From: Lingula anatina
Taxonomy: Eukaryota; Animalia; Brachiopoda
Assembly: GCA_051362555.1 (NCBI GenBank)
Contig: CM120644.1
Span: forward strand, 8,502,954-8,566,953
Length of the DNA: 64,000 nt
Direction of reading: 5' to 3'
Shown here piece by piece: positions 42,674-64,000 of the stretch; the first letter of the stretch is position 1, and each line of letters starts with the position of its first letter. The translations under genes were made by a program, and so were the position numbers. The notes under the pieces were generated by a model. It worked only from the letters and a program-made list of their open reading frames with translations. It made no database searches and was not told the origin of the DNA.

Positions 42674-43180
42674 TGTTATAGTGACAATAATGAAGGTCTG
42701 AAACTTTCGAACGTTTATTCACCGACTCTCTTGTACATGCAAATTCACAAGTATTTACACTCTATTTCTCCATACTGATCATGAATTCACTTGTTTTATT
42801 TCTATAGTCCTTGCGTGATTACAAGGAATTCTTCATTCTCACCATGCAACATTTCCTCATTACGTAATTTATTAGAGACTTGTTTTCAATTAAAATATTG
42901 TTTGAATTACTCATGCTTGATCCATATCCATCCTTAGTTTGCATGTGTTAAACGCGTGTCAGGAACTTGCAAATCTATTGAGAAATTAACAAATTAAATC
43001 GAACTATATGCAACTTTGACAAGTTCCATCTTTTTCTACCACGAAATCAATTTCTACACTTGTTGACCTTAAAGAAATTTAACTAACGCTCAATTACTCC
43101 CTATTCTTTTACTCATCTGATGCCATTTTAATAATCATCTGTATTTGGTGAAAGCGTAAGCCATTTACATGTACTTTACA
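42674..43180 (-). mobile_element. Solo LTR related to the LTR at 61447-61912
   Basis: Minus-strand termini TGTAAAG...TATAACA. 42970-43067 aligns without gaps to 61717-61814 at 71/98 identities (hand count). A degenerate TATA (42752) and AATAAA (42714) have the same 38-nt spacing as in the other copy. Flanked by ATAAATA on both sides. Confidence 0.8.
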
Positions 43181-43449
43181 ATAAATATATAACATGTAGT
43201 CCGTAGAATGTTTTGTGCGGAATTTTATTGACCAGTATATGCTAGCATTTTACTATGTTAAATAGCTTCTAACTTCTTAAATAGCATTACAAAACTTGCG
43301 AAGTGCAGTTTTACCTGTATGTTGCTGACTTTTATCGCACATGTCCATAAAAACGGAGATGAAATATCAGGCGGAACACCTGGTAGGAGTTTAATTCCAA
43401 ACTGGGCATCCACAGTCTTAACTGGAAAGTTATTTCTGTGCTTTTTTTT

Positions 43450-44490
43450 TCATTTTTGAAACCCAAGCAAACGCTTTAATCTTTGTCGGAATAATGAACC
43501 GCATAGTCCGTAAACGAAAAAATTAACTGACGAGTTCAGACTTGCTAGAAGAAACCCAGTGGGTGTTGTCCAGCTTTCAATGACTGCAATGATCTCAAAC
43601 TGTCCGGCCATATGATCCATGACAGCCAAAACAAGGAATATAAGAGTAACAGGTAACACAGCTAATATATAAAATGTCATCAGTAACATTACCGTTTTTA
43701 TTATCTGCCTGAAATTATCATTTTTTGAATTGTTCATTGTCAGTCGAATTTCAGCTTGCCTCCTCAAGGACTGAATAAGCTTCACGTATAGAAAAAGCAT
43801 GAACCCATTTGGTAAAATGTTGAAAATGAGAGGAAACGCCTTGCGGTAAACAAGTTCATGGCTGTTGGTCCATTCCTTTAAACGAACATCCAGGCAGAAG
43901 TCACCCGAGCTGTATCCACAAGGAAGAAATCCAACAATTTCAGTGTCAAAAAACTTCGGAAATTGATACATTGTGATCATGGTTAATAACACGTACGTCC
44001 TCCATCTCCATTTTGACACCTTTCGAAACTCAATGCTTTTTACAGGTTTGTCAATTGCGAGATAACGATCGAATGCTACAAAAACTAGCAGAAAAACGGA
44101 AGAAAGTCTTGCAATTAGCATGATTGGCCAAATATAAACGGTGATCGGCTGCATTGCGACAAAGTACCAGTCAATCCACCCTGAATACACATGCAAAGCA
44201 GGTAAATGAACGATAAATATCGCCGTGATTAAATATATATTATCCGTGATTGCTATCCAGGATAGTAAATAATCAGCCGATACATTTGCTCTCTCCTTAA
44301 AGAATACAAGGAAAGACAGGGTGTTGCAAATCATTCCAATCAGACCAACGGCCAATGATGCGAATCCTAGAACAACGACGGTGTACAAGTTTAAGGCCGT
44401 TCGATGATTGGTGGTGCCATTGACTAGCGTACTGTTCAATGAAAATGCCGTGAAATTCAATTCATCTTTATCGTCAATGAAAGTTGCCAT
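43450..44490 (-). CDS. Intronless class A GPCR (FMRFamide/sex-peptide-receptor-like, possibly chemosensory), 346 aa
   Basis: Seven hydrophobic segments, N-terminal glycosylation sequons, GMICN (TM1), IAITDN (TM2), AFDRYLAI (TM3), YQFPKFF, NSSVNFFVY (TM7), FRQRL helix 8. Confidence 0.92.
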   Translation of the reverse strand: MATFIDDKDELNFTAFSLNSTLVNGTTNHRTALNLYTVVVLGFASLAVGLIGMICNTLSFLVFFKERANVSADYLLSWIAITDNIYLITAIFIVHLPALHVYSGWIDWYFVAMQPITVYIWPIMLIARLSSVFLLVFVAFDRYLAIDKPVKSIEFRKVSKWRWRTYVLLTMITMYQFPKFFDTEIVGFLPCGYSSGDFCLDVRLKEWTNSHELVYRKAFPLIFNILPNGFMLFLYVKLIQSLRRQAEIRLTMNNSKNDNFRQIIKTVMLLMTFYILAVLPVTLIFLVLAVMDHMAGQFEIIAVIESWTTPTGFLLASLNSSVNFFVYGLCGSLFRQRLKRLLGFQK

Positions 44491-44560
44491 TTTGTTTAAA
44501 TAGGAAATAAGACGTGAAGCAAACCTGTCTTAACAATAATTGTACTTATGAAGCTGAGCC

Positions 44561-45295: not shown

Positions 45296-45379
<84 letters not shown>

Positions 45380-45468
45380 CTGTCGATTTGGCCGGCTTAA
45401 ATGTCTGTCACGCCTAGTAAAGCTGTTTGGGTATATATATATCTCATATATATATCATATATATATAT

Positions 45469-45498
<30 letters not shown>

Positions 45499-45499
<1 letters not shown>

Positions 45500-45701
45500 C
45501 ATATGTTTAAATGGGGAACTATAGAGTCAATGATCAAATACTAATAGTCCCTCGATATATATGTTTTGATTTATTGTCGTGAAATATATGAAATGCTTTT
45601 CGACAAGTGGACAAAACGTTGCATTGATACCGTTTAGCCTCTAAATGCACCAGATTGGCAATTTGCTTGTTAATATAAACCAATAAATAAATAAATAAAT
45701 A
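45499..45701 (+). repeat. ~200-bp direct repeat, copy 1, upstream of the C1q gene
   Basis: Identical by eye to 47821-48023 (offset 2322). The ORF track gives the same peptide at both places. Confidence 0.95.
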
Positions 45702-45995
45702 TATATATATATATAATGATTGGCCAAGGTTTGAGGGGATATTACAGATTACAGTAATTACAGTGATAAATTTAGGGACGTACGAGAACAAGAAATAAAT
45801 CAACTATTATATCATTACTGTATCATTAATTCAACATTTAGAAATAATTTCCTGATTGACAATAACAATTTTCAATTATAAGCGATTGCATAGAGAATTG
45901 AGAATCACCGGCACAACCCGGATTTTTCTAAAAAACACCGATCATAAAAGTCCTTGAGCTCTTAGACTGGGTTCCCATACATAGATCGATCCATC

Positions 45996-46190
45996 TGGAT
46001 CGATCTTACTCCCTGGGGAGTCTCACTAAATTGCTGTCAACTAACCGGCTTAAATGTCTGCCACGCCTACCGCATCAGCTAGGGGGTAAAGATAATTACC
46101 CCCTAACAGCTTTTCTCGGCGTGACAGACATTTAAGCCGGCCAAGTTGACAGCAATTTAGTGAGACTCCCCAGGGAGATAGATCGATCCA
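45996..46190. mobile_element. Foldback (long palindromic) MITE, PIF/Harbinger-like
   Basis: Arms of ~95 bp, e.g. ctccctggggagtctcactaaattgctgtcaact / agttgacagcaatttagtgagactccccagggag, centred near 46093. A partial arm copy lies at 45376-45430 and a possibly related end near 52760-52830. Confidence 0.8.
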
Positions 46191-46789
46191 AATATCTGTT
46201 GGAATGGTCCCTTAGTCGCTTCATTAAATGCTCCTGGCTCAGAGCTGTCACTGACAAGTCAGGTTGATCTGAGGCACTGTGAGGTTTGTACTCGAAGCTA
46301 CAAGTACAGGGTATGTATTATATAACAAAGGGTAGAAGTGTGTGCGTATTATGAGAACCCAATGGGGTCCATGTATGAGGAGGGGGTTGATTTTTATTTC
46401 GTTGAGAAATGAAGAATTGACCGTTTTAAACTGTGCATATGTAGTTTGTGGTGTGTTTGCATTAGGGTCAGAATATTTTTAGATCAAGTTTGTGAATATT
46501 GTATCACGTTAAAGTCAAGGGTCAGAAAAGACATGATCTTGCTAAACTTATTCTCTTCTTTTTGGATACAAAATGGAAAACTAGATGATTACATTCGTTC
46601 GATTTTACATCAATCTTATTCATTCTGCAAATGTCTCACGGTTTTGAATTGAAATAAGGACAATTTGGGGATTTATGATTATAAGATAGCATTGAAATGA
46701 GCACATGCTTGGTTTTGAAGAAAACAAAAATTAAAATGTAAATAAACTCAATCACCTGAGGTAATTCTTCTATTGCAGACAACTATAAA

Positions 46790-47603
46790 ATGAGCTCAAG
46801 CGCCGTGTTAGTTGTACTGCTGGTGGCAATGCTGGAAGTGTGTGCGTGCTCTGGTATGTACTACAAGGTTTTGTCACTTTAAATTGTGTAAATCATTAAA
46901 ACTCTGTTTTAAATAATTACAATTTTAGTTTAGTAACAATTTTTATGCAAAGCGGACAAACTGTAATGGTGACAGAAGAGCAGATGAAACTGCAGCACTG
47001 AAGCATTGGTAACGAAGGCCCTATCGGCTATAATAGATTGTAAACTAACATGTAGGCCTACAGCAGTTTTTGTTTATGTACTAAAATTCTGAAATAATAT
47101 TATGCAGGTTTAGTTGATTCCAATCTCCATTTCCTCTAATACTAGATTTACAGAGATGCACTGCAGCCTACAAACTAGTAGCGTTCTCGGCAGGGAGATC
47201 AAACGATCTTGACCAGACGGGGAAAGGGAACGCTGTGGTTGTCTACGACACCGTCTTTCTGAACGATGGCAACGGTTATAATAAAGACACGGGGAAATTC
47301 AATTCACCGACCTCAGGGGTCTACGTCTTCCATTACCATAGTCTCAGCCAAAACAACAAGCCCGTATTTGTCAGATTGAACCACAATGGCCAAATAAAGA
47401 ATACTGGGTACGGTAAACCTTCTACGGGGTTTGCGACAGGCAGTAATACTATTGCTTTGCGGCTGGCAGAGGGAGACGAGGTGTGGATTGATTTAGTTGG
47501 CGGCAACGCCCTTCACAACCATCCTGGGGAGTTCCACAGCACGTTCACCGGTTACCAGCTCTATCCAGACAACAGCAGCATTAACACCGTGGCTTTCCAT
47601 TGA
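46790..47603 (+). CDS. Secreted globular-head C1q-domain protein (no collagen), 173 aa
   Basis: Exon 46790-46853 (signal peptide MSSSAVLVVLLVAMLEVCACS) joined to exon 47146-47603. gC1q motifs VAFSA, YDTVFLNDGNGYNKDTGKFNSPTSGVYVF, GSNTIALRLAEGDEVWI, STFTGYQL. Likely 5' UTR intron 46311-46778. Confidence 0.92.
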
Positions 47604-48040: not shown

Positions 48041-48612
48041 ATGTTCTTGTCAAATATACTGAAAGGCGGCGCTACAGAAATAATTCAAAGAAGCAATATT
48101 AATTATCTGAATAATATTTTTTTAGGTTGGTTTATTGCTTCGATATACTTCCAACAAACGTAGTATCATAACATGGCGTTTCCGAAAAAAAAACATCAGA
48201 CGAGAACGGTTATGTGCAGAATCATAAAGGGTCCTGTAACAGTGACACAACACACACACATACACACACACACACAGGAACACCCGGCACACCGCTGCTG
48301 GAAACTAAAATTGATAATTGATAATTTTGATATCAACCTGACTGTGATGTACTGTATATAGATAACTTTATCAAACAATACATCACTAAGTTATTAGCTT
48401 GCGCCATGGCCTTGGTATATCATTATAGGGTTGGGGCGTTCTGGCTATGTCCTCATTATTGACAAAATAAACTGATTGTAGACAAATTTGAAGCAGTATA
48501 GATAACCTATAAAATGATATATAAAGCGTACGCAACGGTTTTGGCAGCACTACAGCGGGGCAGCCGGCATGTAGGCGCGGGGCACTGTGCCCACTCTGGG
48601 CGCTAATCTACT

Positions 48613-50811
48613 ATGGTAATGGCTTCGAAAGAGATGTACAACGTCTTCAGTGAGAACTTTTTAACATGTCATGTGTGTTTTGAAGAATATAAAGACCCGA
48701 GAGTGCTTCCCTGTTACCACACGTTCTGCCTGGAATGCATTGCTGACCATGCAGCCAAGAATGGTGTCCAGAACAAGTTCTCCTGTCCCTTGTGTCGCCA
48801 AGAGGCCCCCGTACCTCCAGGTGGGTTAGCAACTCTCGTGAAAAACTTCTTCCTTACAAAAGTAACAGACTTCATGAAAGATCTGAAAACCCCAGAGGGG
48901 AGACTTTGTGAGTATTGTAAGCATAAAGAGGCCATTTTGCTGTGCCAAGGTTGTCCCAAAACTAACCAATTGTGCGCTACATGCCGTGAATTGCATGACA
49001 GCATTCCGGCATTAAATGGACATCACTTTGTACCTTTATCACAATTCGATTTCTCAGTTAACCCATCTAACATCCGTGAACAATTACGTCACGTATTAGA
49101 TAAAGCTCAATACTGCGACAAACACGACGGCGAGTTGCTAACATTATATTGTGAAGAGGATGACACCGTGGCATGCAGAGATTGTATTTTAGAAACTCAC
49201 AGTAAACATGACTTTAAAAAAATTGGAGATGTGGTGAAGGGTCAACGGGAGTTAATACAAGAAAAACTGAGATGTCTCCCAAGTGCAAAGCCGTCTCATT
49301 ATGAAATTGCAGAGAAAGCCATTGTACGAACGGAAGAGAGGCTGACAGAAAATCAGTCAAACGTACTTAGTTTGGTGGATTCTCAAAAATTAGCTATGAC
49401 GAAGGAGATAATGGAAAACAGTGAAACCATTGAAAGAGAACTAAGCACTTATTACCAACAAGTAGAGAAAGACGTACGTCGACAGATCGACGAGTATTTA
49501 ACAAGTATGAAACACCATTTGGAAACGTACCAAACAAAAGTACTGTCAGATTATATCGAAATGCAGAAAGTTATAGATGACAAAAGCAACGAAATAACGG
49601 CCGAAGTTATGGCACTCACCTCCACGCAGTTGAAGACTTTAGAAGCTGAAAAGGACAAGCAAGAAATTGACAAGATTTCCATCCAGAGCATTCGTGAATT
49701 CGCCCAGCAGCTCACAACCAACGGATCTGCCATCGAGGTCATGACCCACTCTAAAAAACTCCAAGCTAGAATCCAGGAGTTGCAGACAGTAGAACCAGTC
49801 TTTGATACCAAGATCACCGACGTAACATTAACACCAGGTCTAACAGAAATGGACCGTGTGCTACAGTTTCCTAAAATCCCTGAACCAAAACCGCTGTCCA
49901 TCAAAACAGGGTCCATCACGGCCAAAACATACCGCGGTCCCTTGGATGCATGTTTTGGAAGTTTGAAACAAGAGGTAGCGCACTGTCCCGAGCTGATGTG
50001 TTTTCAGAAGGCAACATGGTTTGGCACTCCAGAGCGGAAATTTTGTTTTAATATTAAGGGCTGGCCACTGTGGGACATCCAGTGTACAGATGACGGGTGT
50101 ATTTTAGTTGGACATAGTGATGCAGTGTCAGTTTTCTCCAGTGCAGGTAAATGTAAGCGTAAAATCAGTATAGAGGGAGGCGGAAGGCGTATCGCTATAA
50201 TCAGTAACGATACATTCGTGGTCATATGCCGTGATGAATGCTGTAGACTGTATTCAACATCAGGCCATGTTACCCGGTGTTTTGGTCAGGGTGATATGTC
50301 TTACCCCTGGGGAGTCACTGTGGACCGTACAGAGGGTAAGGTGTACGTGTGTGATTGTGGTGCACAGTGCATCTGTGTGTACGACATGACATCTTTTCAT
50401 CTTGTTAACAGAATTGCTATCCCAATGTGCAGTAAAGACACACTGCGCTGTGCATACCACCACGGCATCAATGCAATCATAGTCAGCGACCGCTTGGCCC
50501 ACTGTGTGTATGCAGTGACACCCCAGGGTGACGTCATGTTTCAATACGGAGCACGAGGTCAGAGTGGAAGTGGAGACGGACAACTGAGTTATCCACGAGG
50601 AGTGTGCGTAGATAAATTTGGACAAATGTTTATAGCTGACCGTGATAATGACAGGGTGGTTGTCCTTGGTCTAGACGGAAAATTTTTACGTAACATTTTG
50701 ACAAAAAGCGACAACACTGAGCTGCCTTTGTCCGTCTCTATCGCCAGTAACGGGGAGCTTGTTGTTGGATCCGCCAGAGGAAAAGTATCCACGTATAAGT
50801 ACATCGCTTAG
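48613..50811 (+). CDS. Intronless TRIM-NHL E3 ligase-like protein (TRIM2/3/56/71-like), 732 aa
   Basis: RING CHVC..LPCYHTFCLEC..CPLC, B-box1 CEYC..CQGC..CATC..H..H, B-box2 CDKH..YCEED..CRDC..H, long coiled coil, NHL repeats (PWGVTVD, GSGDGQLSYPRGVCVD..IADRDNDRV). Confidence 0.93.
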   Translation: MVMASKEMYNVFSENFLTCHVCFEEYKDPRVLPCYHTFCLECIADHAAKNGVQNKFSCPLCRQEAPVPPGGLATLVKNFFLTKVTDFMKDLKTPEGRLCEYCKHKEAILLCQGCPKTNQLCATCRELHDSIPALNGHHFVPLSQFDFSVNPSNIREQLRHVLDKAQYCDKHDGELLTLYCEEDDTVACRDCILETHSKHDFKKIGDVVKGQRELIQEKLRCLPSAKPSHYEIAEKAIVRTEERLTENQSNVLSLVDSQKLAMTKEIMENSETIERELSTYYQQVEKDVRRQIDEYLTSMKHHLETYQTKVLSDYIEMQKVIDDKSNEITAEVMALTSTQLKTLEAEKDKQEIDKISIQSIREFAQQLTTNGSAIEVMTHSKKLQARIQELQTVEPVFDTKITDVTLTPGLTEMDRVLQFPKIPEPKPLSIKTGSITAKTYRGPLDACFGSLKQEVAHCPELMCFQKATWFGTPERKFCFNIKGWPLWDIQCTDDGCILVGHSDAVSVFSSAGKCKRKISIEGGGRRIAIISNDTFVVICRDECCRLYSTSGHVTRCFGQGDMSYPWGVTVDRTEGKVYVCDCGAQCICVYDMTSFHLVNRIAIPMCSKDTLRCAYHHGINAIIVSDRLAHCVYAVTPQGDVMFQYGARGQSGSGDGQLSYPRGVCVDKFGQMFIADRDNDRVVVLGLDGKFLRNILTKSDNTELPLSVSIASNGELVVGSARGKVSTYKYIA

Positions 50812-53990: not shown

Positions 53991-56900
53991 TTAACTGACA
54001 ACTTCGTACTGGTTCGTCTCGTAGTCTGGAGGAGGAATGTACACCGGTGAGCCCCGTCTATTGTCGCGTAAGCCTCGATCCTCTTTCCAAGAATTTACCG
54101 CCCCCGGTGTATCCTCTGGCGAGTGGTCGTACATACGGTTGTTGAACTGTGCTGCGAACAACCTGTCGTCCCTCCATAATTGTGAGGGCGGCCTTAGGGC
54201 TGAGCGTGGTGGGAGAGGTCGCGGGTATTCAGCAGTCCGAGGAGAATGGGAACTGACTGACGCTTGCTTGCTACAACCGAAAATAGGAAAGTTTGGCGTA
54301 GTCAAACGACATTTTATGGCGACAACAATCTCCAGAGCTTATTTATTCCTTGTTGCCTTCTTTCTTGCTTTGAATGAGACTATAAAAGTTTGTGGTACAC
54401 TGAGATAGAGCATACATAAAAGAACATTGCGTGAATACGTTACCCTTCAACTGCACTTCTAATACATTCATCTATTTATTTATTTATTCCCTCTCATTGT
54501 TTAAAATTGATTTTCAAATTGGCGCAGGTCACTGAGATATCCGCTGCCTTTACTACGTCATCGGTAACAGTGAAAAATTATGTTGTTCCAATGAATACGT
54601 TTTGTAAGCGTTTCTTGTAAAACAAGAACCATGTGGGAGCAGTGCCTTTGACCGCTTACGCGTGTGAAAAATTACACCCCCATTACAAGGAAATCCAATC
54701 TCGAATATGAAAACCACCCGTGGTCGATGAATTCAATATCGATTATCTTAACATTGTGAAGGACATATTCGTGCTGATTACCTTTTCAATCGCTGTATTT
54801 TTCTACGGTGGACACAACAAAAGATGCCAAATCCAAAGACGGCAACAATAAAGGCAAGAGAACCCAGCACGGCACCTATTATCCATATAGTCGGGGGCTG
54901 AAGGACACCTGGCGGCGAGGTTATTTTGATCTTGCATACTGAGTAGTCAAAGATGAATAATTTCAAAATATTGAACATAATTAAAGCAGTCAATTGAACG
55001 TTTAATCAAAACTGGGCATTTTTGGTTTTTAAACCCACAGAACCAATTAATATTCTTAAAAATCACATGCTTAAAACACATTTTAAAAACATTTAAAAAC
55101 AGATTAAGAAAATCTAAGCAAAGAGGAAAATTTGTGACACGAATTGTGACAAGAATTGTGCCTATAAGTAAACACGTCTTCAATATTGTTTTAATCACCT
55201 TCGAACGCGGAAATCAAAGCAGAAATTCGTTAACCAACTCTAAAATATTTTCAATATACCTTCCGTCGCGGTCCACTGATGAACGCTGGCATTAGGATAG
55301 CACACTTTGCCACTGTTCTTTGGATCCAGCTGACATAAAGCGTAGCACGTGCCGTCAATGAGACAGAAATCATGCTGAAAATGATGTAATATGGAGAGAT
55401 ATAGAAGTTTGCTGCTCAGGGTAGACTGGCTAACTCCTCACGACTGAAATGCACTGAAGGCGTGCGGGGCATCTGACACGTCAAAATAATGTTTTTTAAA
55501 AAATTTTAAAAATTAAAAAAAAAAATGCATTTGACTTTGTCAGACTGTGGAGTACGGGGACGTTTCCCCCCAATGTCAAAATGTGCACCCAAAAATGGAG
55601 TCACATTTGACATTTTTTAATTGTCGGGTAATCTATACCTACCTGTGTATGATTTGCAACGTCATTGCTTGCAATATACCATCTTGTGTATAAGACATAG
55701 GTATTTAAATGACGTATCATTCTTTCATCGTAATATCAACGAGTTAGTAAAGTATACTGTATATACAATGAAACATATAGGAAATGTGTATATATTATTT
55801 AAGTAAAGAAAAATTTCCATTACCTTCACTGACCAGCCATTATCATTGTCAGTTGCAGAACAAAACTGGCAGAAAGAACCCGGGTTGGTTTCACCGTCGT
55901 TGTAACACTGCGTGTCTATACTGCATGTAATTGGCTATATATGACGCAAAATAAATAAAACGACGATAGTCATCTGTCTTTCATGCATGGGCTTCATAAA
56001 TGGGTATTGCAAAATTGTTTTTTAGATAAAACAGCACATTATTTTACATTTTTGCAAATGAATTATACTGTTTTAATTTATCATTGTGTTAAATCGTTGT
56101 ATAAAAGTACTTTTTTACGATTAGAAATATATGTGCCTCCTACAATGGACTGCCTCTACGATGAAACAGAGACAAACGAAGATACCACCAAGGAATCGCA
56201 TACAGTAGTTGCAAAGTAAACTGAAGTAGACTACAACAAAAAGGTTATTGAAAATACGAGGTGCAAGTCTCATCCATCTACGCTTGCAAACCAAGGCTCC
56301 AATTTGGAATTCTGCAGAATTCTTGCACGTTTGCGCTTCCCGTGTTCATGACTTTGAATTATCACTTGAATAAAAAAAAGATCGCTTATAAGTACTTTTG
56401 GCAAGAACCTACTTTGCGGAACCAAGTGGAGTTGCTGTAGGTGGTGTTGCAGGTGCGACATCTATCGTCGACATTTTCCTCCCCGTCGGCGTAACAACTA
56501 CAGTCGATGGTGCATGCATCGCTCTGCAAGATACAGACGGCAGATTTGAATTCTTAATTCAGTACATATTTATCAGAACAGTTGAAAGATTTATGTCTGC
56601 TACGTAACATGCAATTAAATGAAAGCATATACAGTGTACATATCAAAATATATACATTAAAAATCGCAAAATATGAGATGACCTGCATCTTTGAAATTGG
56701 ACAAATAGACTTGCCTAAGACTTTAATTTATGTCTTAATTATCATGGAGCTATATGCTGTGCTCTGCGTGCACAAAGATGTTCAGCGCACTGTATACACG
56801 ACTTAGGCCTACCTTCAACCGGCAGCTGTTTGGGTCATTATTTCTACAAGAGACACACTTGTCATCAAAGGTTATCAGGTATGTAGCATTGCTAAACTGT

Positions 56901-57713
56901 GCTTTGTTGTTGCTGACGCTTATGCCATAACGGTAGATTGGAGGTCCAGTACACTCAGCGCTACGTTTATGGTGCCTTGGTCTAGGAAGAGGGCAGATAA
57001 CTTCTTGAAAGTGAACGAATTCTGCAGCCATGAGTTCCACGTTTGCCGCGCTACTCTGAGGCTTTCCTGCCGTCACCTGAGAGGGATATAAGATTAAGAT
57101 ACGTTCTTACTCTGTTTGTTACTGAATTCAAAGTATAAGCTGACAAGTCCTTTTTACGTGTAATTTCTCTCACCTTCAACTTCTTTCCTCATCAAGAATA
57201 ATAAATTAATAAATTAACTCCATTTTTTTGTATATTTTGTTATTATAATTGCATAATAAAGATGTATTGAAAATAAATGGTTCAGTTAGAGTTTGAAATA
57301 TTAAGGATGTTTGTTTATATCGATGTTGCTCATTGTCCTCATTTTATCATTAATAGACTATATGCATGTCATATATTTGTATTTGAACAATATTTCTGAT
57401 CCAACTAAGACATTGTCATTCTCAACATCACCTCCTGAATTTCCACTTTACATGTTAAGTTTTTATTGTCGAGGAAGGTGCCACCGTAGACGGGTGACCT
57501 TGCACATGGCCTTGACCTAGTTTTACACAGACCGTCGCCCGGGAGGTAATAAATGGTTGGCACGGCGGATGTATCAATAGAACAATCTGCGCCAGCAAAC
57601 GTGTCGTCGCAGCTACACGTGCCTGTAATGAAGATCAAGATATTAATTAACATATTAAAGGCACAGTGCCATAAAGTAATTTCTCTCTTTTTTCTTCAAT
57701 TGTTAATTTTTTG

Positions 57714-57758
<45 letters not shown>

Positions 57759-59917
57759 CGGACCGTTGATGCATTGGCCATTTCCACTGCATTCATTTGG
57801 ACATTGCACTGCCTCCATTTCCTCGGGAAGGGAAACTTTACCAGTCTCGTTGTTAGTCACCCAAATTGATGAGTTTTTCTCTAGTTCTCCTAGACATGAA
57901 CTCTTAATAGCCTGAAGTGCTGCAGGTGCCCATTCAGTGCTACCAGTTAGCTAGATATAAAAGGTAATCGGTATATGTATGTTGTGAACTTAAAAAAAAA
58001 CTGGTTAATTTTTGTTTTGAATGTACATTATGAGCAGTTAAAGGTATTAGATACACTTCGCCTCTTGTATATTTTGTATACTTCAAATTCCAAATGGTAC
58101 TGAATTCATTGTAGAAAGAACAAAAACACATGCAGAAAATTAAACCATGTCTGAAATAAGAGAAGCAACCAAAAGATATACGTTATTCCAATGCAACATG
58201 TACGGATTTTCGTGCAAGCACTCTCGTGTCTGTTGTGTGTGTACGAATGAACATATATAGGCTTACATATATGTCTTCTATGCAGCCTTTGATGGGATCC
58301 TCCGTGTTGGCACCAGGTACCGACTTGCAGGACTTGCCAGTGCTTGTGTTGGCCATGAAGGTTTCACAAAACTGAGCTGCGGTGGCATTTGTCCAGTTAT
58401 TCTTCCACGATGGTTCCTATGCAAAAGCAATTTGCAATAATGATTTTTGTATAGTTTGAAAGGTGAAGATATTCACTGCAATATTTGAACATTGTCCAAA
58501 AAGATGGATATTGTGCGTACACCTGTAGAGATTTGTGGGAAAAATGCTTATCCTCTATAAAATTGCAACAAGCTCTGTGTAAAAAACAAGACCTTTCATG
58601 CTGTCTTGTTCTAAAAACTAATCTTCTGCGTGTCATCTCTAAATAGTATGTACGATTTCCTATATGCGGGGACATATGAAAAGGGACAAATAACACTTAA
58701 ATATTTCACCATCACAGATGCATTTGAATTGTTCTGTGGATCAAAACAGAAAGATAATTTACTCATGCAAATGCATGGCGTGCAAACACCCATTGCTGTA
58801 ACAAATCTAACATTTACCGGCACTGTATGATAAATGTCGTATTCAAAAACCCGAGTTTCCAAAACATCATCATTGCCTTGACCGGATTCTTCGGCGGCCC
58901 TACGGCGCCGACATTTCTGATGCTCTCTAGAGGAGAAGTTGTCATCTCCTGGACACTTGACAATATTTTCTGCGTAACCACACTGCACGATCGAATTGGC
59001 GTCATTGGTTTCTGCAGAACATCGGCAATAGTTAGACCGTGATGTTGACCGCTTTGAGAATTGTAGCTGGGAGGCAGGAGGTCCGTTATAGATTGAATAC
59101 TGCGGCTGAACCCTAAATGTATAAAATAGCAAGGTGTGGATTCGATTCAGGGCTCCGCACCCTGAGCCTCAGAGATAACTTGGCACTAACCTCTTCACTA
59201 TAGCCTTCATCGTGTCAAATTACCTCTGACCACATTCGATTGCCCGCGCCGCCTGCAAATCAAATTTAAAGCCCGCCCTCAATGACTCATTGAACGTTCT
59301 AGCCAATGAACGCGAACGAGTCAAAGCGCGCTTTGTTCAAATCCGGACCAATCAAAGATAAGGCTGAATATCAGGGACTTGCCGTAACCTGTGGGCAGCA
59401 CGCAAAATACATCATCCCTCAGTAGATAATGATGCAGGGCCTCAAACTGCTCTGGTTTCAATTCCGATATACTCATAATTTGCAAAGAATCAAGAGATAA
59501 CTTAACACATTCTTTTACGTAGTCACTTAGTAGACGCCATGCTTTCTTTTGTGTACGGTTATGCAGACGCAACGAAATACAAGTTTCTCATTGGACATAA
59601 TTCTGGATTTTCAACCAATCAGCGTTTTCACTTTGGTGAAAAATTTTGAAACATGGATTCGATTGGCTTATATAAACTAAGTCAAACTATTTTCGTCAGA
59701 GGTAACTTGACACGATGAAGATAGGCTATAGTGAAGAGGTAAGTGTCAAGTTCAACGAAGCTCAGGGTGGGGCTCCGTTAACTTGAAAGCATCGCGAATT
59801 GCGAATCACCTTTCATTTCGGGGCTATTAGGGCCTGTATAGTAAGTTATGGAATAGAGACGCTGGCACTCGGTCGCAATTCGCGATGCTTTCGAGTTACG
59901 GAGCCCAGGTGTTCTGC

Positions 59918-59956
<39 letters not shown>

Positions 59957-61104
59957 TTCAAGCCATGGTCTTTTTAGCAAACGTGTTTTAATAAATAACA
60001 ATCAAGAAAATCATAAAAAAAATATATATATATTGACAATACCTCCAGGACATTGCAAAATCCTTTGGATTACGAGAAACGGGTTCAGTACGTCCGTCTC
60101 TAGTCAGGAAGTCGTCGCTCTTGTCATGGTTTAGGGTTCCACACAATCCAACTGTTCTGTTAAAATCCTTAGCTCCAGGATGAATCTGAACATTCATGAA
60201 GTCGTCGTGTCCATATCGATAGACCATTATGTCAACATAGCCTCCAGTGGGTAAGTAAACCTTGAAAATAATATTTCAGTGAGAAGTTCCTAACAATCTG
60301 TCTGGACAATTATGAGATTTTTAAAGAAATGTACTCTTTTGTCTCTACTGCTCAGTTAATCATTATAAAATCAGCATATCTATTTGTTAATATGACATTG
60401 ATGTTTGTGTCTCTGGCTTATAAGTTCATTGAAAAAATAATGATTGTTTCAGACTTTTTCAAAGAAGCTAATAATGTAAAAAATTCACTGAAAAGTGAAA
60501 TTTCGATTTAACTGATACCATCCAATGATTGGACTTGTTCAACATAGGCAACAATACCTTAAAATGCTTTCCACCGTTTAAAGACTCCACCCTCAGTTGC
60601 CCGTCCTCGCACCCAACGAGTCCAACTCGCATTGGTCTCTTGGCTGTGATTTGCTCCAGTCCCGTGCCAGGTTTACATGTGTCCACTATGAAGACGTCTC
60701 CCCCGGACATCACGCCCACAGCACAATTACAGTATGCGTAGCCGCCATTGCAAGGTTTGAAAAAAGCATGTACCTAAAACATTACAATTTGAAGAAGAAA
60801 TCAACGGTTCGTGCTACGTTTTTCATGAAGGATCTAAGAGGAGATATTATCGCACGAGAACTCTTTTAATTTGTGTCCATTTTATACCTTTGAATGAAAC
60901 CCTGATTCTGCCAGAGCCTTTTTGGGATGTTCTAATACTTCAAAGTATTAACACAAATTCAAAGAAAGAGTTTTAAAATACGACATGTGGAGTTTGACAA
61001 ATGACAGAATTGGTGAATGAAAACAAACATAATATTTTACCTGAACTGGTAATGTGGTATGTTTATACAAAACAAATTCACCTCCGTACTGGCATTCGTA
61101 GTTG
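53991..61104 (-). CDS. VWD- and EGF-domain type I membrane protein (VWDE-like), 5' exons outside window
   Basis: Exons 61041-61104, 60558-60773, 60043-60260, 58818-59112, 58267-58416, 57764-57950, 57432-57622, 56813-57076, 56413-56523, 55824-55934, 55260-55374, 54782-54938 (or 54908), 53991-54270 join in frame. VWD motifs [97 protein letters not shown]; tail with PPPDY. Confidence 0.88.
59158..59769 (-). mobile_element. DNA transposon derivative with ~70-bp TIRs, 8-bp TSD and a RecQ-like helicase fragment
   Basis: TIRs at 59158-59230 and 59695-59769 (caccctgag..cctcttcactatagcct..gtgtcaa.ttacctctgac). TSD GGGCTCCG at 59150-59157 and 59770-59777. ORF 59321-59572 contains LKPEQFEAL...DVFCVLPTGYGKSLIF (SF2 Q motif plus Walker A). 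Confidence 0.8.
59770..59906. mobile_element. Short MITE interrupted at its left end by the helicase-bearing element
   Basis: Inverted arms gggctccgttaacttgaaagcatcgcgaattgcga / tcgcaattcgcgatgctttcgagttacggagccc. Confidence 0.75.
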
Positions 61105-61446
61105 CTATAATGTCAAAAATATATTTGAACAGATTATTGATACAATATGGATATATTGTTTCAACATGGATCTATAAATTAATAATAAAAGCATCGTGGA
61201 GACCTTGATTTGTGTGCGAGTGAGGGAGTAGTTGTGTTGTAATTTATCTAATCATACTTAAGAATTTTTTAAAACATTCAATATTGATGCCATGACCAGG
61301 TGTATGTACATAAATGCATATCTCCGTATACAGAAAATGTTGCGTTTGCCTGCGTTAATAAAATTGTGACAATAAATTTAATTTAATATGGGTAAGTGTA
61401 TGTTTGCAAGCAAAGCAAGCAAATGCTTTTGGTAGGCTATAAGACC

Positions 61447-61912
61447 TGTTATTATAGTGACAACAACGACGATCTGGAGCTTCAGATATTTATTCCCCAC
61501 ACTCAATTTTTCACAGAATCTACAAGTATTTATATTCTATTTTCCATTCTCATATTTCCCATTCTCATATTACAAAACTCTATTCAATATTTCCTAATTT
61601 AGTAATTTAAATGAAACTTGTTTATGATTTAAAATATTTAAAATATTTTCCGAATTACTCATTTTGGATCCTGTCCAATTCAAGTATACATGAGTTCTAC
61701 ACGTGTTAAACACGCGCAAATCGATAGAAAAATTAACCAATCGGATCCAACTATTTCGGACTCTGAAACGTTCCACCCTTTCCATCTTCGAGAACAGTCT
61801 CTACACTCGTTGACACTTTAAGAAATTTACTTTGTACTCGATAACTTTCTACACATTTGATTCTGTTTTAATTGTTTTGTAATTGCCGAAAGTGTATGTC
61901 ATTTGCTTTACA
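61447..61912 (-). repeat. 3' LTR (466 bp)
   Basis: Starts TGTAAAG just after the PPT and ends ATAACA. TATAAATA at 61527-61534 and AATAAA at 61489-61494. Both boundaries coincide with the limits of similarity to the solo copy at 42674-43180. Confidence 0.8.
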
Positions 61913-61980
61913 ACATACACCCCTTCTTCAAAAGAATTCGTCCTCGAATTCTAAAACTTTACAACATACGCCCCTTTTTC
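61913..61980 (-). other. Doubled polypurine tract with an intervening hairpin
   Basis: GAAAAAGGGGCGTATGTTGTAAAG and GAAGAAGGGGTGTATGTTGTAAAG, 51 nt apart, separated by AGAATTCG-AGGA-CGAATTCT (61933-61952). Confidence 0.75.
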
Positions 61981-62091
61981 ATTTTTTTTAAAGCAAAACT
62001 AAATAATATCAAATTTGTAAATTAACAAAACTAACCATGCTATCGTAATGTAGTAAAAGATCCCTTACAAAAACAATCTATGCTGCATGCA

Positions 62092-62649
62092 TTAATGTTC
62101 AATGTATTTACAAATAGGACAATGTGCCACTGTACTGATAGTAAGATCAGAACAAATTCCATTCCTTGTAAATTTAAGAGCAAGTCGTCGAAATCGAGTA
62201 TACGTCATTTCTCGATCATCATTCATCAATAATTCATGATAATGCTTAACAGGAATATTCAAACGTCGCAATAATAGTACAGTAACTACAACTAACTTAG
62301 TAACACTCCATGCATAATATAAAGATTGAATAATACATTTACCAAAATCTAATGGTATTTGATGCAACATGTATATCATGTAATCTTCAGATATCATCAA
62401 ATAATGAGCACAGCCAATTAACTTCATAAAGTCCAACTTCTCGTCTAGGTTATTAAACCTTCCACAAAATGCAAACAAAATTGATTCATTTATCAAATCA
62501 GATGAAAACTTAATCTGAAAATTCGGTTCTCTTTGTTGTTTGAAGTATAATTCATTTATATATACAGAATGTTTACGGAAGTTCTCGAAAAGCTTAAATG
62601 ACAAAGTTACAATTCTGTCATCAATGTAAATGTGATGTACAAGTTTCAT
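62092..62649 (-). CDS. Accessory ORF with a divergent BTB/POZ-like domain, 185 aa from the ATG at 62649
   Basis: HSVYINELY...ESILFAFCGRF...FMKLIGCAHYLMISE follows the BTB pattern S-x-YF / ll-x-F-x-Y-x-G / LL-x-aA-x-yL-x-i. C-terminal HCPIC. Preceded by a polypyrimidine tract and CAG acceptor (62656-62658). Confidence 0.65.
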   Translation of the reverse strand: MKLVHHIYIDDRIVTLSFKLFENFRKHSVYINELYFKQQREPNFQIKFSSDLINESILFAFCGRFNNLDEKLDFMKLIGCAHYLMISEDYMIYMLHQIPLDFGKCIIQSLYYAWSVTKLVVVTVLLLRRLNIPVKHYHELLMNDDREMTYTRFRRLALKFTRNGICSDLTISTVAHCPICKYIEH

Positions 62650-63159
62650 CAGTTTCTGCAAAATCAAATAGAAAATAAGAAAAATGATAATAGACATATT
62701 TACAAAATCATAATTGTTAAAAAAAAAAAACTCTAAGTACAACCATTAATATTCATAACATAGTAAAGTAAGTACAATACAGCATGCAAATAATAATGAT
62801 CATGATTAACACAAAAAATCCTAATTATATATAAGTGATATGTAATAGATTTTATAAAAGCGCAAATAATCGTATTACATTATTCATAAAATAGTATATA
62901 GTGATTAAAACAAATTCAATTTTTGTTAAAACTCATCGAGTTAATTCTGTGCGTCTCGCACACTCTCAATAATAATAATACATAGATCAGTTTCTTCAAT
63001 CATTGGAGTAACAGTGAGAAAAACTCAATCATAAAGTCATTAAAATGCTGTGATAGTACACACACCCTCTTACACCAAAAGTCCGCTCGCAAAGATCAAT
63101 GCACTTAGTAAATACTAGACACATGTAGCAAGTCAAGTCAAATTTAACTTGGACAAAGA

Positions 63160-64000
63160 TTAATCTGCATTGTGATCAAATGGCTCAAACTGAATATAGA
63201 AAAGTGCATTAGCATGTTTAATGCGCAAAAATGCATAATATTCACTCTTGAGTAATTTTCTGAGTTTAAAAGCTGTGACCATAGACAATGGGATAGCTCG
63301 TTCCAAAGTGATGATTTCGTTAGTTATAAGGTTTGTAATTTGCAGACCATGCCAATCTATTGTTAGGTGTGGACTGTAGGTACCTTCAACCTTTAAAATA
63401 TCAAAGTACGATTCATGACTTTGAAAAACCCAGTACTTTGGACATAATGACAGTTTTCTGATAGGAACCGAAATACATTGTTCATTGTTGGAAATCTCTA
63501 AAACCAGAGCATTTCTCTTAGACTTAAAGAATGTTCTCCTAATATGTCCCACAAGGAAAATCAAGAAGATAATGGTAATTACAATTTGCATTATTAAAAT
63601 AGGAAATGTCATTGAATCCGTGATAATCAGTACCTTCGGCTCATTACTATTTGTTTTTGTTGTGGAATCTAGTAACCAATACGGCATAGTAGGAACTATA
63701 TCGTTTCCACGTGCCTTCTTCAGCAAAGCCACTATAATTGCCAATTGCCTGACCTTGATTCCTAGGCAAATTATTATCACGAGCAATAAGCCCGACAACC
63801 CTATTGAAATCCAAACCAGTATTTGAGAAAAATCATCTGTAGAAAATATTTCGTCTGCTAGAATAGCATCTGCCATAGAAGAATAGATTTGCTCCTGACT
63901 TTTTGCTGCTTGAGCCATTTTTTGTAAGCTCAAATGATCAACTGAATCTTTCGCAAGGAAATGGGAAAAATTATGTTGAAATAATTGAAGAACATTCGAT
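63160..64000 (-). CDS. C-terminal part of an env-like multi-membrane protein, open to the window edge
   Basis: Frame is open from 63999 (SNVLQLFQHNFSHFLAKDSVDHLSLQKMAQ...). Amphipathic helix, TM1 ILVWISIGLSGLLLVIIICLGI, signal-like LAIIVALLKKARG, S/T-rich spacer, TM2 FPILIMQIVITIIFLIFLV, and a ~130-aa beta-rich tail. It lies in the env position upstream of the PPT/LTR. Confidence 0.65.
   Translation of the reverse strand, partial: SNVLQLFQHNFSHFLAKDSVDHLSLQKMAQAAKSQEQIYSSMADAILADEIFSTDDFSQILVWISIGLSGLLLVIIICLGIKVRQLAIIVALLKKARGNDIVPTMPYWLLDSTTKTNSNEPKVLIITDSMTFPILIMQIVITIIFLIFLVGHIRRTFFKSKRNALVLEISNNEQCISVPIRKLSLCPKYWVFQSHESYFDILKVEGTYSPHLTIDWHGLQITNLITNEIITLERAIPLSMVTAFKLRKLLKSEYYAFLRIKHANALFYIQFEPFDHNAD

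What the first reader, a model, noticed from the sequence alone, without database searches (positions are those of the whole stretch)
61447..64000. Complex-retrovirus-like LTR element: env-like gene plus a spliced accessory BTB gene before the 3' LTR
Seen: on the minus strand an intact membrane-protein ORF runs in from the window edge, followed by a second intact AT-rich ORF, a hairpin, a PPT, and an LTR with TG..CA ends, TATA and AATAAA. The LTR is independently supported by a solo copy at 42674-43180. Known: env-bearing Ty3/Gypsy elements occur in invertebrates, while accessory genes between env and the 3' LTR expressed from spliced mRNA are typical of complex vertebrate retroviruses. Inference: this is an invertebrate endogenous retrovirus-like element with a complex genome. 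Its two visible ORFs are intact, so it may be recent.
Basis: partly seen in the sequence, partly recalled or inferred. Interest (0 to 1): 0.9.

Follow-up and report, generated by a model that had tools for sequence, protein, structure and literature searches.

The report
Retrovirus-like element with extra BTB-like gene
This is the tail end of a transcribed, multi-copy LTR jumping-gene family, likely from the brachiopod Lingula, that carries a likely envelope gene followed by a real fourth protein-coding frame predicted (weakly) to fold like a BTB protein-binding domain, which would give an invertebrate retrovirus-like element its own tool for handling host proteins.

Summary
The anatomy is real. 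On the minus strand: a 279-codon two-membrane-segment frame (ORF-A), a 217-codon frame (ORF-B), a doubled polypurine tract and an LTR, better placed at 61447-61915, with a 75%-identical solo LTR at 42674-43183. ORF-A is 88% identical to an uncharacterised Lingula anatina protein. RNA reads from sibling copies cover the LTR, ORF-B and the ORF-A tail, stop at the LTR end and pile up about 35 nt below the TATA box, so this is an expressed multi-copy LTR family, not a single-copy gene. ORF-B has one independent relative (36% over 112 aa). BTB is suggestive only: a low-confidence model ranks BTB/SKP1 entries first in Foldseek (32 of 33 listed PDB rows, best E 0.18), while Pfam and VIA-align do not confirm it. 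Splicing is not shown: 31 reads cross the acceptor unspliced where depth is about 35. The siblings lack the window copy's ATG and differ by a one-base indel there, so 'intact, recent' is unproven. Env class, gag-pol and the 5' LTR lie outside the window and were not seen. Env-bearing Ty3/gypsy elements are known in lophotrochozoans; I found no report of a BTB-like gene after env.

The parts
63160..64000 (-). ORF-A: C-terminal 279 aa of a likely envelope gene: end of ectodomain, membrane segment 1 (about aa 60-80), short loop, membrane segment 2 (about aa 132-152), about 125-aa tail
   Evidence: 88% identical (222/251) to P0005 = XP_013394663.1 Lingula anatina, which adds 96 aa upstream with 6 Cys; no family hit
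62936..63159 (-). Non-coding stretch after the ORF-A stop that sibling RNA still matches at 88% or more; holds the only GTRAG donor-like site between ORF-A and ORF-B (63073), preceded by a 17-codon frame from ATG 63124
   Evidence: no RNA joint at 63073; fold not above shuffles, z 0.70
62669..62935 (-). AT-rich spacer (19.5% GC), poorly conserved in siblings; intron-like
   Evidence: X18 depth falls to 0-1 in bins 62726-62939, with loose ends at 62668 and 62936
62656..62668 (-). Candidate splice acceptor (pyrimidine tract, then AG at 62657-62656), just before the part of ORF-B that matches P0001
   Evidence: sequence; 31 X18 reads cross it unspliced, depth about 35
62092..62745 (-). ORF-B: fourth, accessory-type frame (217 codons stop to stop; in-frame ATGs at 62697 and 62649); soluble after the acceptor; N-terminal about 100 aa predicted BTB-like; C-terminal helices and a His-Cys-x2-Cys end
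   Evidence: relative P0001 E 3.3e-6, 36% over 112 aa; fold; sibling RNA coverage
61957..61981 (-). Upstream duplicate of the purine tract plus the first LTR bases; matched by sibling RNA
   Evidence: 92% identity
61933..61952 (-). 8-bp hairpin between the two purine tracts; not above chance for its stretch
   Evidence: z 0.25
61920..61929 (-). Polypurine tract, 4 nt before the LTR
61447..61915 (-). 3' LTR, 469 bp, TG...CA ends
   Evidence: boundaries from RNA loose ends at 61916 and 61452, no RNA depth below 61442
61489..61534 (-). LTR promoter and poly(A) signal: TATA 61534-61527, initiator-like 61506-61500, RNA ends piling up at 61500/61498/61491, AATAAA 61494-61489
   Evidence: table 6 (16, 36 and 40 molecules in X18)
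61443..61446 (+). Predicted half of the target-site duplication if this family duplicates 4 bp
   Evidence: inferred from the solo LTR; other half outside the window
42674..43183 (-). Old solo LTR of a related family, 510 bp, 74.6% identical, flanked by a 4-bp repeat

Best explanation
This is the 3' end of a transcribed, multi-copy LTR retrotransposon family, likely an env-bearing Ty3/gypsy element (errantivirus) of the brachiopod Lingula, that carries after its likely envelope gene a fourth protein-coding frame predicted to hold a BTB-like domain, which would likely work as an adaptor that binds host proteins for the element. Shown: LTR with promoter and RNA ends below the TATA box, purine tract, solo relative, sibling copies in RNA, two real coding frames. 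Inferred: (1) gag-pol lies upstream and the element copies itself by reverse transcription, the purine tract priming the second strand (family knowledge; p about 0.85). (2) ORF-A is the membrane anchor and tail of an F-type envelope protein that would let particles pass between cells (p about 0.75). (3) ORF-B is a maintained accessory gene (p about 0.8) with a BTB-like N-terminus (p about 0.6). (4) Because it sits fourth and expressed siblings lack the ATG after the acceptor, it is likely translated from a minor spliced mRNA whose start codon comes from an upstream exon (p about 0.45). (5) It most likely recruits a cullin ubiquitin ligase, as poxvirus BTB adaptors do, to remove a host silencing or restriction factor (p about 0.3), or acts as a decoy partner of host BTB repressors (p about 0.2).
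For: LTR and solo relative. 1199 X18 reads, 1197 of them under 99% alike, cover the LTR, ORF-B and the ORF-A tail, with none below the LTR end. 5' ends pile up at 61491-61500, and 336 reads run on from the LTR end into one sequence that is not the window flank. In X15 all laid first mates, and in X16 those over ORF-B, lie on +, which in most stranded libraries means sense RNA. Paralogue P0005 is 88% identical, with an upstream Cys-rich, N-glycosylatable stretch. The eLife survey PMC13524379 lists 11 POL-ENV pol and 17 env regions in L. anatina, 'No intact copies', and F-type env in 29 of the 30 annelid, bivalve and nemertean rows shown. ORF-B length is above chance and it has a relative. Predicted order beta-beta-alpha-alpha-beta-alpha-alpha-alpha fits the BTB core (topology recalled). 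Foldseek: 32 of 33 listed PDB rows are BTB/POZ/SKP1 entries, about 8 distinct proteins; 27 of 50 BFVD rows are named BTB/POZ/SKP1/Kelch. Poxvirus BTB-Cul3 adaptors: search listing only, PMC6484134.
Against: gag, pol and the 5' LTR were not seen (no genome held; no related locus). No fusogen family matched ORF-A or P0005 in Pfam, NCBIfam or PDB. For ORF-B the model is poor (pLDDT 48.7), the best Foldseek E-values are 0.18 and 0.028, Pfam gave no BTB at E up to 10, and VIA-align gave BTB entries only Z 3.3-3.6, below unrelated helical repeats. No joint into the acceptor was listed, and 31 reads cross it unspliced at depth about 35. Synonymous excess is not significant: 6 of 13 shown sites against about 0.33 expected, p 0.23. 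The 30 letters shown beyond the LTR end do not open with the TGG of a tRNA primer site.
Confidence: 0.6

Rival explanations
1. The element and its env are real, but ORF-B is a captured or decaying passenger that is not expressed as protein and does nothing for the element.
For: No spliced mRNA seen; start codon not shared between the window copy and siblings; selection test not significant; the context of P0001/P0004 is unknown.
Against: The frame stays open over 217 codons at 28% GC. Sibling RNA matches the frame but not the spacer just upstream. Similarity to P0001 starts right after the acceptor.
Confidence: 0.17
2. ORF-B is a functional accessory gene but not a BTB protein, or it is made without splicing (internal promoter in the conserved stretch after env, or re-initiation on env mRNA), for example as a Rev/CERV-like RNA-export factor.
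For: BTB support is sub-threshold; most RNA crosses the acceptor unspliced; a non-canonical 419-nt skip 62584-63002 appears in 7 X18 reads; Cer1 CERV shows that RNA-export accessory genes exist in invertebrate LTR elements (PMC10309623).
Against: Two independent libraries rank BTB folds first. No RNA start cluster between ORF-A and ORF-B among the 6 of 7 rows shown (table 6).
Confidence: 0.15
3. The element is an LTR retrotransposon of another group (for example BEL/Pao), or ORF-A is a non-fusogenic membrane protein rather than an envelope.
For: RT not seen; no fusogen hit; PMC5408684 warns that membrane segments alone have misassigned ORF3s as env; two membrane segments plus a long tail is not the single-anchor layout described for F ectodomains in PMC13524379.
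Against: Cys-rich, glycosylatable stretch before the first membrane segment in P0005; pol-env neighbours already counted in L. anatina; a 4-bp target duplication fits errantiviruses (recalled).
Confidence: 0.12
4. The two frames are exons of a single-copy cellular gene and the LTR is incidental.
For: P0005 is annotated as an uncharacterised host protein; VWD/EGF exons lie on the same strand just downstream.
Against: RNA comes from several divergent copies and stops at the LTR end; ORF-A ends in a stop; the purine tract abuts the LTR; solo relative.
Confidence: 0.03

Closest known systems
Env-carrying Ty3/gypsy 'ancient errantiviruses' of annelids, molluscs and nemerteans (Chary & Hayashi, PMC13524379; abstract, sections 6 and 14, passages and supplement rows read)
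   Same: Invertebrate LTR element with an env-position membrane gene; L. anatina was screened and gave pol-env candidates but no intact copies; primer site 'none' in 9 of the 30 rows shown.
   Different: That survey describes gag-pol-env only; 'BTB', 'accessory' and 'splic' have 0 occurrences in its main text. Here a fourth frame follows env, and ORF-A has a second membrane segment and a long tail. pol was not seen here.
C. elegans Cer1 CERV (PMC10309623; abstract, one section and passages read)
   Same: Accessory, non-structural protein of an invertebrate LTR retrotransposon encoded near the 3' LTR; made from a spliced mRNA.
   Different: The CERV ORF sits where env would be and does not resemble env; here env-like and accessory frames coexist. 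'BTB' has 0 occurrences there. Splicing is shown for CERV and not here.
sORF1/sORF2 of Drosophila MDG1-group elements (PMC11952523; passages read) and non-env ORF3s of bdelloid LTR elements (PMC5408684; abstract and first part of Results read)
   Same: Extra genes carried by invertebrate Ty3/gypsy elements.
   Different: The sORFs lie upstream of gag in env-less elements and are unspliced; bdelloid ORF3s replace env and are esterases or exonucleases.
Poxvirus BTB-Kelch adaptors such as vaccinia A55, and giant-virus BTB proteins (search listing and start of abstracts only; BFVD rows)
   Same: A virus-borne BTB domain; the model of ORF-B ranks these folds first in BFVD.
   Different: Those are large DNA viruses. 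ORF-B has no Kelch or WD repeat, is about 190 aa, and its BTB status is sub-threshold.
Accessory genes of complex vertebrate retroviruses (lentivirus nef/vif, foamy virus bel/tas; recalled, from no call)
   Same: Position between env and the 3' LTR; hijacking of cullin ligases is a known accessory-gene strategy.
   Different: No sequence link found, host is an invertebrate, and neither Retroviridae membership nor spliced expression is shown.

Membership tests
LTR retrotransposon | LTR with TG...CA ends, promoter and poly(A) signal | tested here: met
   61447-61915; TATA, AATAAA, RNA starts 61491-61500
LTR retrotransposon | Polypurine tract just before the 3' LTR | tested here: met
   61929-61920, 4 nt before the LTR, doubled upstream
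LTR retrotransposon | Multiple copies, solo LTRs, target-site duplication | tested here: met
   solo LTR with 4-bp repeat; paralogue at 88%; divergent sibling RNA. The element's own duplication needs the far end.
LTR retrotransposon | Paired 5' LTR, gag and pol | not testable with these tools
   outside the window; no genome held; no related loci
LTR retrotransposon | tRNA primer-binding site after the 5' LTR | tested here: inconclusive
   336 reads run on past the LTR end without a TGG start in the 30 letters shown; whether they come from a 5' LTR is not certain
Ty3/gypsy errantivirus (Metaviridae) | pol order PR-RT-RH-IN and RT phylogeny within Ty3/gypsy | not testable with these tools
   pol not in the window
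Ty3/gypsy errantivirus (Metaviridae) | env of F type or gB type (signal peptide, furin site, fusion peptide, Cys pattern, anchor) | tested here: inconclusive
   anchor and Cys-rich stretch present; no Pfam/NCBIfam/PDB hit; N-terminal half missing; not folded
BTB/POZ domain | Sequence profile match | tested here: inconclusive
   no Pfam BTB at E up to 10 for ORF-B, P0001 or P0004; no PDB sequence match with the 3-row profile; a remote member would be missed
BTB/POZ domain | Core fold beta-beta-alpha-alpha-beta-alpha-alpha-alpha | tested here: inconclusive
   order matches; BTB entries rank first but E 0.18 and 0.028; VIA Z 3.3-3.6, rmsd 4.9-10.3, 114-140 aligned; model pLDDT 48.7
BTB/POZ domain | Binds cullin-3 or a partner BTB | not testable with these tools
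   no cullin sequence available to the session; needs a pull-down
Complex retrovirus-type genome | Extra gene between env and the 3' LTR | tested here: met
   ORF-B, provided ORF-A is env
Complex retrovirus-type genome | Accessory gene expressed from a spliced mRNA | tested here: inconclusive
   no joint into 62655; 31 reads unspliced at depth about 35; 59 of 72 loose ends not shown, so a minor form from a distant donor is not excluded
Retroviridae | RT/integrase phylogeny within Retroviridae | not testable with these tools
   pol not seen; an invertebrate host argues for Metaviridae (PMC13524379)

The most novel reading that the evidence does not exclude
A lophotrochozoan errantivirus lineage has a four-gene, complex-retrovirus-like genome: after an F-type envelope with an unusual two-membrane tail it encodes a spliced BTB adaptor, part of an undescribed family shared with other animals' elements (P0001/P0004), that hijacks a host cullin ligase or BTB repressor to defeat silencing. 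This would be an independent invention, in a retrotransposon, of the Vif/Vpx-type accessory strategy.
Probability: 0.2. Interest if true: 0.85.

Novelty: new variant of a known kind. Interest (0 to 1): 0.58.

Why it matters
Env-bearing Ty3/gypsy elements are now known across animals, but the survey of them describes gag-pol-env elements and did not look for other ORF arrangements. A maintained fourth gene after env shows that these invertebrate elements can carry accessory genes in the slot used by complex retroviruses. If the BTB reading holds, it points to a testable counter-defence (ubiquitin-ligase hijack or repressor decoy) in a little-studied phylum. It also gives a cheap screen: look between env and the 3' LTR of the 1,512 catalogued errantiviruses.

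Tried and rejected
No whole genome is held, so gag-pol, the 5' LTR and copy number could not be read. Locus searches found no relative: metagenome contigs with ORF-A and with the ORF-B alignment; viral contigs with ORF-A, P0001 and P0005. Protein search for longer ORF-A relatives: 0 of 3847 candidates (weak evidence by the tool's own note). Word-based search for ORF-B: 0 of 36. ESM Atlas gave no usable hit for ORF-B or the ORF-A tail. Two of the three HMMER hits for ORF-B (P0002, P0003) were rejected as short repeat-driven matches. Single-sequence fold of ORF-B: pLDDT 45.8, not searched. VIA-align over 48,161 chains listed no BTB entry in its top 50 (best Z 6.1, generic helical matches to residues 100-170). 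ORF-B(1-130) homodimer prediction: no answer, score 0.00, neither for nor against. No RNA holder was listed in the index; raw-read runs were laid instead (4 of the 9 RNA runs offered, 6-25% of each read). Hairpin and post-env RNA folds are not above shuffles. No Rfam match. Donor 63073 with the 17-codon frame from ATG 63124 would be in phase with ORF-B in the window copy, but no RNA joint supports it and sibling reads differ by one base just after the acceptor, so it was set aside. Synonymous test: 13 of the 15 shown ORF-B sites (the two upstream of the indel dropped; only 40 of 219 difference rows were displayed), inconclusive. Literature searches for a BTB ORF in LTR elements found nothing relevant (0 papers; 72: 4; 99: 2, listings only); searches found no description of this element. 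Alignments of PMC13524379 are figures or external files and could not be seen; they may bear on the env class.
Full report
Observation. ORF-A (63160-63999) is open for 279 codons from the window edge and has two hydrophobic peaks (KD19 2.82 and 2.94). ORF-B (62092-62745) is open for 217 codons at 28% GC; none of 2000 shuffles reached 180 codons (maximum 148). Below it lie a purine tract (61929-61920), duplicated with the first LTR bases at 61957-61981 (92%), and an LTR with TATAAATA (61534-61527) and AATAAA (61494-61489). The 8-bp hairpin at 61933-61952 exists, but its stretch folds no better than shuffles (z 0.25). The second LTR copy near 42.7-43.2 kb is real but old: 74.6% over 453 aligned bases, score 283 against a best of -39 in 50 shuffles.

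Boundaries. I place the LTR at 61447-61915. In run X18, 34 reads follow the LTR up to 61916 and then leave into unrelated sequence without a purine tract, as the flank of another copy would.

Host and copies. No genome is held. The one hit for ORF-A among 2194 candidates is P0005, labelled by its source as an uncharacterised Lingula anatina protein (XP_013394663.1), 88% identical over 251 residues. The host is therefore likely Lingula or a close relative. The neighbouring host genes are C1q, TRIM-NHL, a GPCR and VWD/EGF exons. P0005 adds 96 residues upstream with six cysteines; it has three N-glycosylation motifs before the first membrane segment. That pattern looks like the end of an F-type env ectodomain to me from recall, but no Pfam, NCBIfam or PDB entry matched either protein, and ORF-A was not folded.

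Expression. Four of the nine RNA runs offered were laid, 6-25% of each: 8, 52, 1199 and 30 reads. In X18 only 2 of 1199 reads are 99% or more alike (373 at 95-99, 634 at 90-95, 190 below 90), so the RNA comes from sibling copies or diverged alleles rather than from this sequence. Coverage spans the LTR, ORF-B, the stretch after ORF-A and patches of ORF-A, and is zero below the LTR end. Molecule ends pile up at 61500, 61498 and 61491 (16, 36, 40), about 35 nt below the TATA box. 336 reads run past the LTR end into a single sequence that is not the window's flank. This fits a 5' LTR driving an internal leader, although an LTR driving a host flank is not excluded, and the 30 letters shown do not begin with the TGG of a tRNA primer site. 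In PMC13524379's table, 9 of the 30 lophotrochozoan rows shown also have no primer site. First mates in X15, and in X16 over ORF-B, lie on + only, which in most stranded libraries means sense RNA; strandedness is not stated. These data rule out a single-copy cellular gene for practical purposes.

Is ORF-B a gene? An HMMER scan of 1.84 billion representatives gave three hits. P0002 and P0003 are short repeat-driven matches. P0001 (251 aa, E 3.3e-6) aligns at 36% over 112 residues, starting just after the candidate acceptor; it has one near-identical cluster mate, P0004, and both come from short unnamed contigs of unknown context. Sibling RNA matches the frame but not the 19.5%-GC spacer above it. 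Of 13 displayed differences inside the frame, 6 are synonymous against about a third expected (p 0.23), which is inconclusive; only 40 of 219 difference rows were displayed and two sites upstream of the indel were dropped.

Is it BTB? Pfam gave no BTB hit at E up to 10 for ORF-B, P0001 or P0004, and the three-row profile matched no PDB sequence. The AlphaFold model on that alignment is poor (pLDDT 48.7, pTM 0.33), but its first 98 residues run beta-beta-alpha-alpha-beta-alpha-alpha-alpha, the BTB core order as I recall it. Foldseek has no match at E 0.001, yet 32 of the 33 listed PDB rows are BTB/POZ/SKP1 entries (about 8 distinct proteins; best E 0.18), and 27 of 50 BFVD rows are named BTB/POZ/SKP1/Kelch (best E 0.028). 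VIA-align does not confirm this: BTB entries score Z 3.3-3.6, below generic helical repeats. I put BTB-like at about 0.6.

Is it spliced? A pyrimidine tract and AG end at 62656. The RNA shows no joint into it, and 31 X18 reads cross it unspliced where depth is about 35. Full-length and env mRNAs would be unspliced here in any case, and 59 of 72 loose ends were not displayed, so a minor form from a distant donor remains possible. Indirect support: all 35 X18 reads and 3 of 3 X16 reads at 62648 lack the ATG at 62649, and the X18 reads show a one-base gap at 62644 or 62646 (16 and 19 of 35). In those siblings neither ATG of the window copy (62697, 62649) can start the frame, so a start supplied by an upstream exon is the simplest route. 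The same facts mean that the window copy's ORF-B is not shown to be intact, and nothing here dates the insertion. The only donor-like site in the interval (63073), with a 17-codon frame above it, has no RNA support.

Mechanism. Most likely the element is an env-bearing Ty3/gypsy retrotransposon whose LTR drives a full-length RNA (shown for siblings: start cluster and run-on), with gag-pol upstream (inferred), an envelope for cell-to-cell passage (inferred), and ORF-B as a minor, likely spliced, soluble product (inferred). BTB domains are protein-binding modules (established knowledge), and poxviruses use BTB adaptors to subvert cullin-3 (listing and abstract start of PMC6484134). My committed guess is an adaptor that recruits a cullin ligase against a host silencing or restriction factor (about 0.3), with a decoy for host BTB repressors next (about 0.2). 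None of this is tested.

Comparison. PMC13524379 (abstract, sections 6 and 14, passages, supplement rows) shows env-bearing Ty3/gypsy elements across metazoans. It lists L. anatina with 11 pol and 17 env candidate regions and no intact copy, states that it did not search other ORF arrangements, and never uses 'BTB', 'accessory' or 'splic' in its main text. Accessory genes in invertebrate LTR elements are known: spliced CERV of Cer1, in the place of env (PMC10309623; abstract, one section, passages), sORF1/2 upstream of gag (PMC11952523; passages), and enzyme ORF3s in rotifers (PMC5408684; abstract and part of Results). PMC13121700 notes recent LTR expansions in L. anatina (passages). Three searches pairing BTB with LTR elements returned nothing relevant; the library lacks most subscription journals. 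An earlier, unchecked note of this scan (e1-7708284) reports another small frame after env in a different animal, and e1-8585436 an extra enzyme gene between pol and env; they are leads, not support.

Verdict. A real 3' end of an expressed LTR family with a real fourth frame after an env-like gene: a new variant of a known kind. The env class, the BTB fold, splicing and recency are each unproven. Interest 0.58; the fully novel reading (spliced BTB ligase adaptor in an errantivirus) has probability about 0.2 and would deserve 0.85.

Noticed in passing
window 53991-61112, minus strand: Exon-like frames of a VWD/EGF-type membrane gene (Pfam VWD E 1.8e-7 at 59991-60275, weak EGF at 57408-57695) run on the same strand just downstream of the LTR, so the element may sit in an intron or upstream of this host gene. 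No laid RNA read reached 60800-61441.
   Followed up: partly
window 61447-61452 (LTR end), run X18: 336 reads leave the LTR end into one sequence (agreement 0.99) with no TGG primer-site start: either the leader of a sibling with an unusual primer, or an LTR driving a host flank.
   Followed up: partly
window 61888-61997, runs X15 and X16: Other expressed subfamilies share the purine-tract region and the first 28 or so LTR bases, then diverge (loose ends at 61888): several LTR variants with one 3' end.
   Followed up: no
window 62584-63002: 7 X18 reads (5 starts) skip 419 nt with an AG at the acceptor side but no GT donor; a deletion copy or a non-canonical joint.
   Followed up: no
window 63163-63540 (ORF-A tail): After the second membrane segment ORF-A has an about 125-aa tail with no Pfam, PDB or Atlas match; an undescribed domain of these env-like proteins is possible. 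Not folded.
   Followed up: partly
window 48607-50811 (+), 47118-47603 (+), 43450-44529 (-): Host genes: a single-exon RING/B-box/NHL (TRIM-NHL) protein, a C1q-domain exon and a single-exon GPCR. The solo LTR lies about 270 bp downstream of the GPCR.
   Followed up: partly
window 59321-59587 (-): Weak DEAD-box helicase fragment (Pfam E 7.8e-4) among the VWD-gene exons, possibly a remnant of another mobile element.
   Followed up: no
window 35013-36178, 36573-37032, 45373-46193, 45499-45713/47821-48035: Tandem arrays, an inverted repeat of about 200 bp and a 215-bp direct repeat at 98.6% identity.
   Followed up: no
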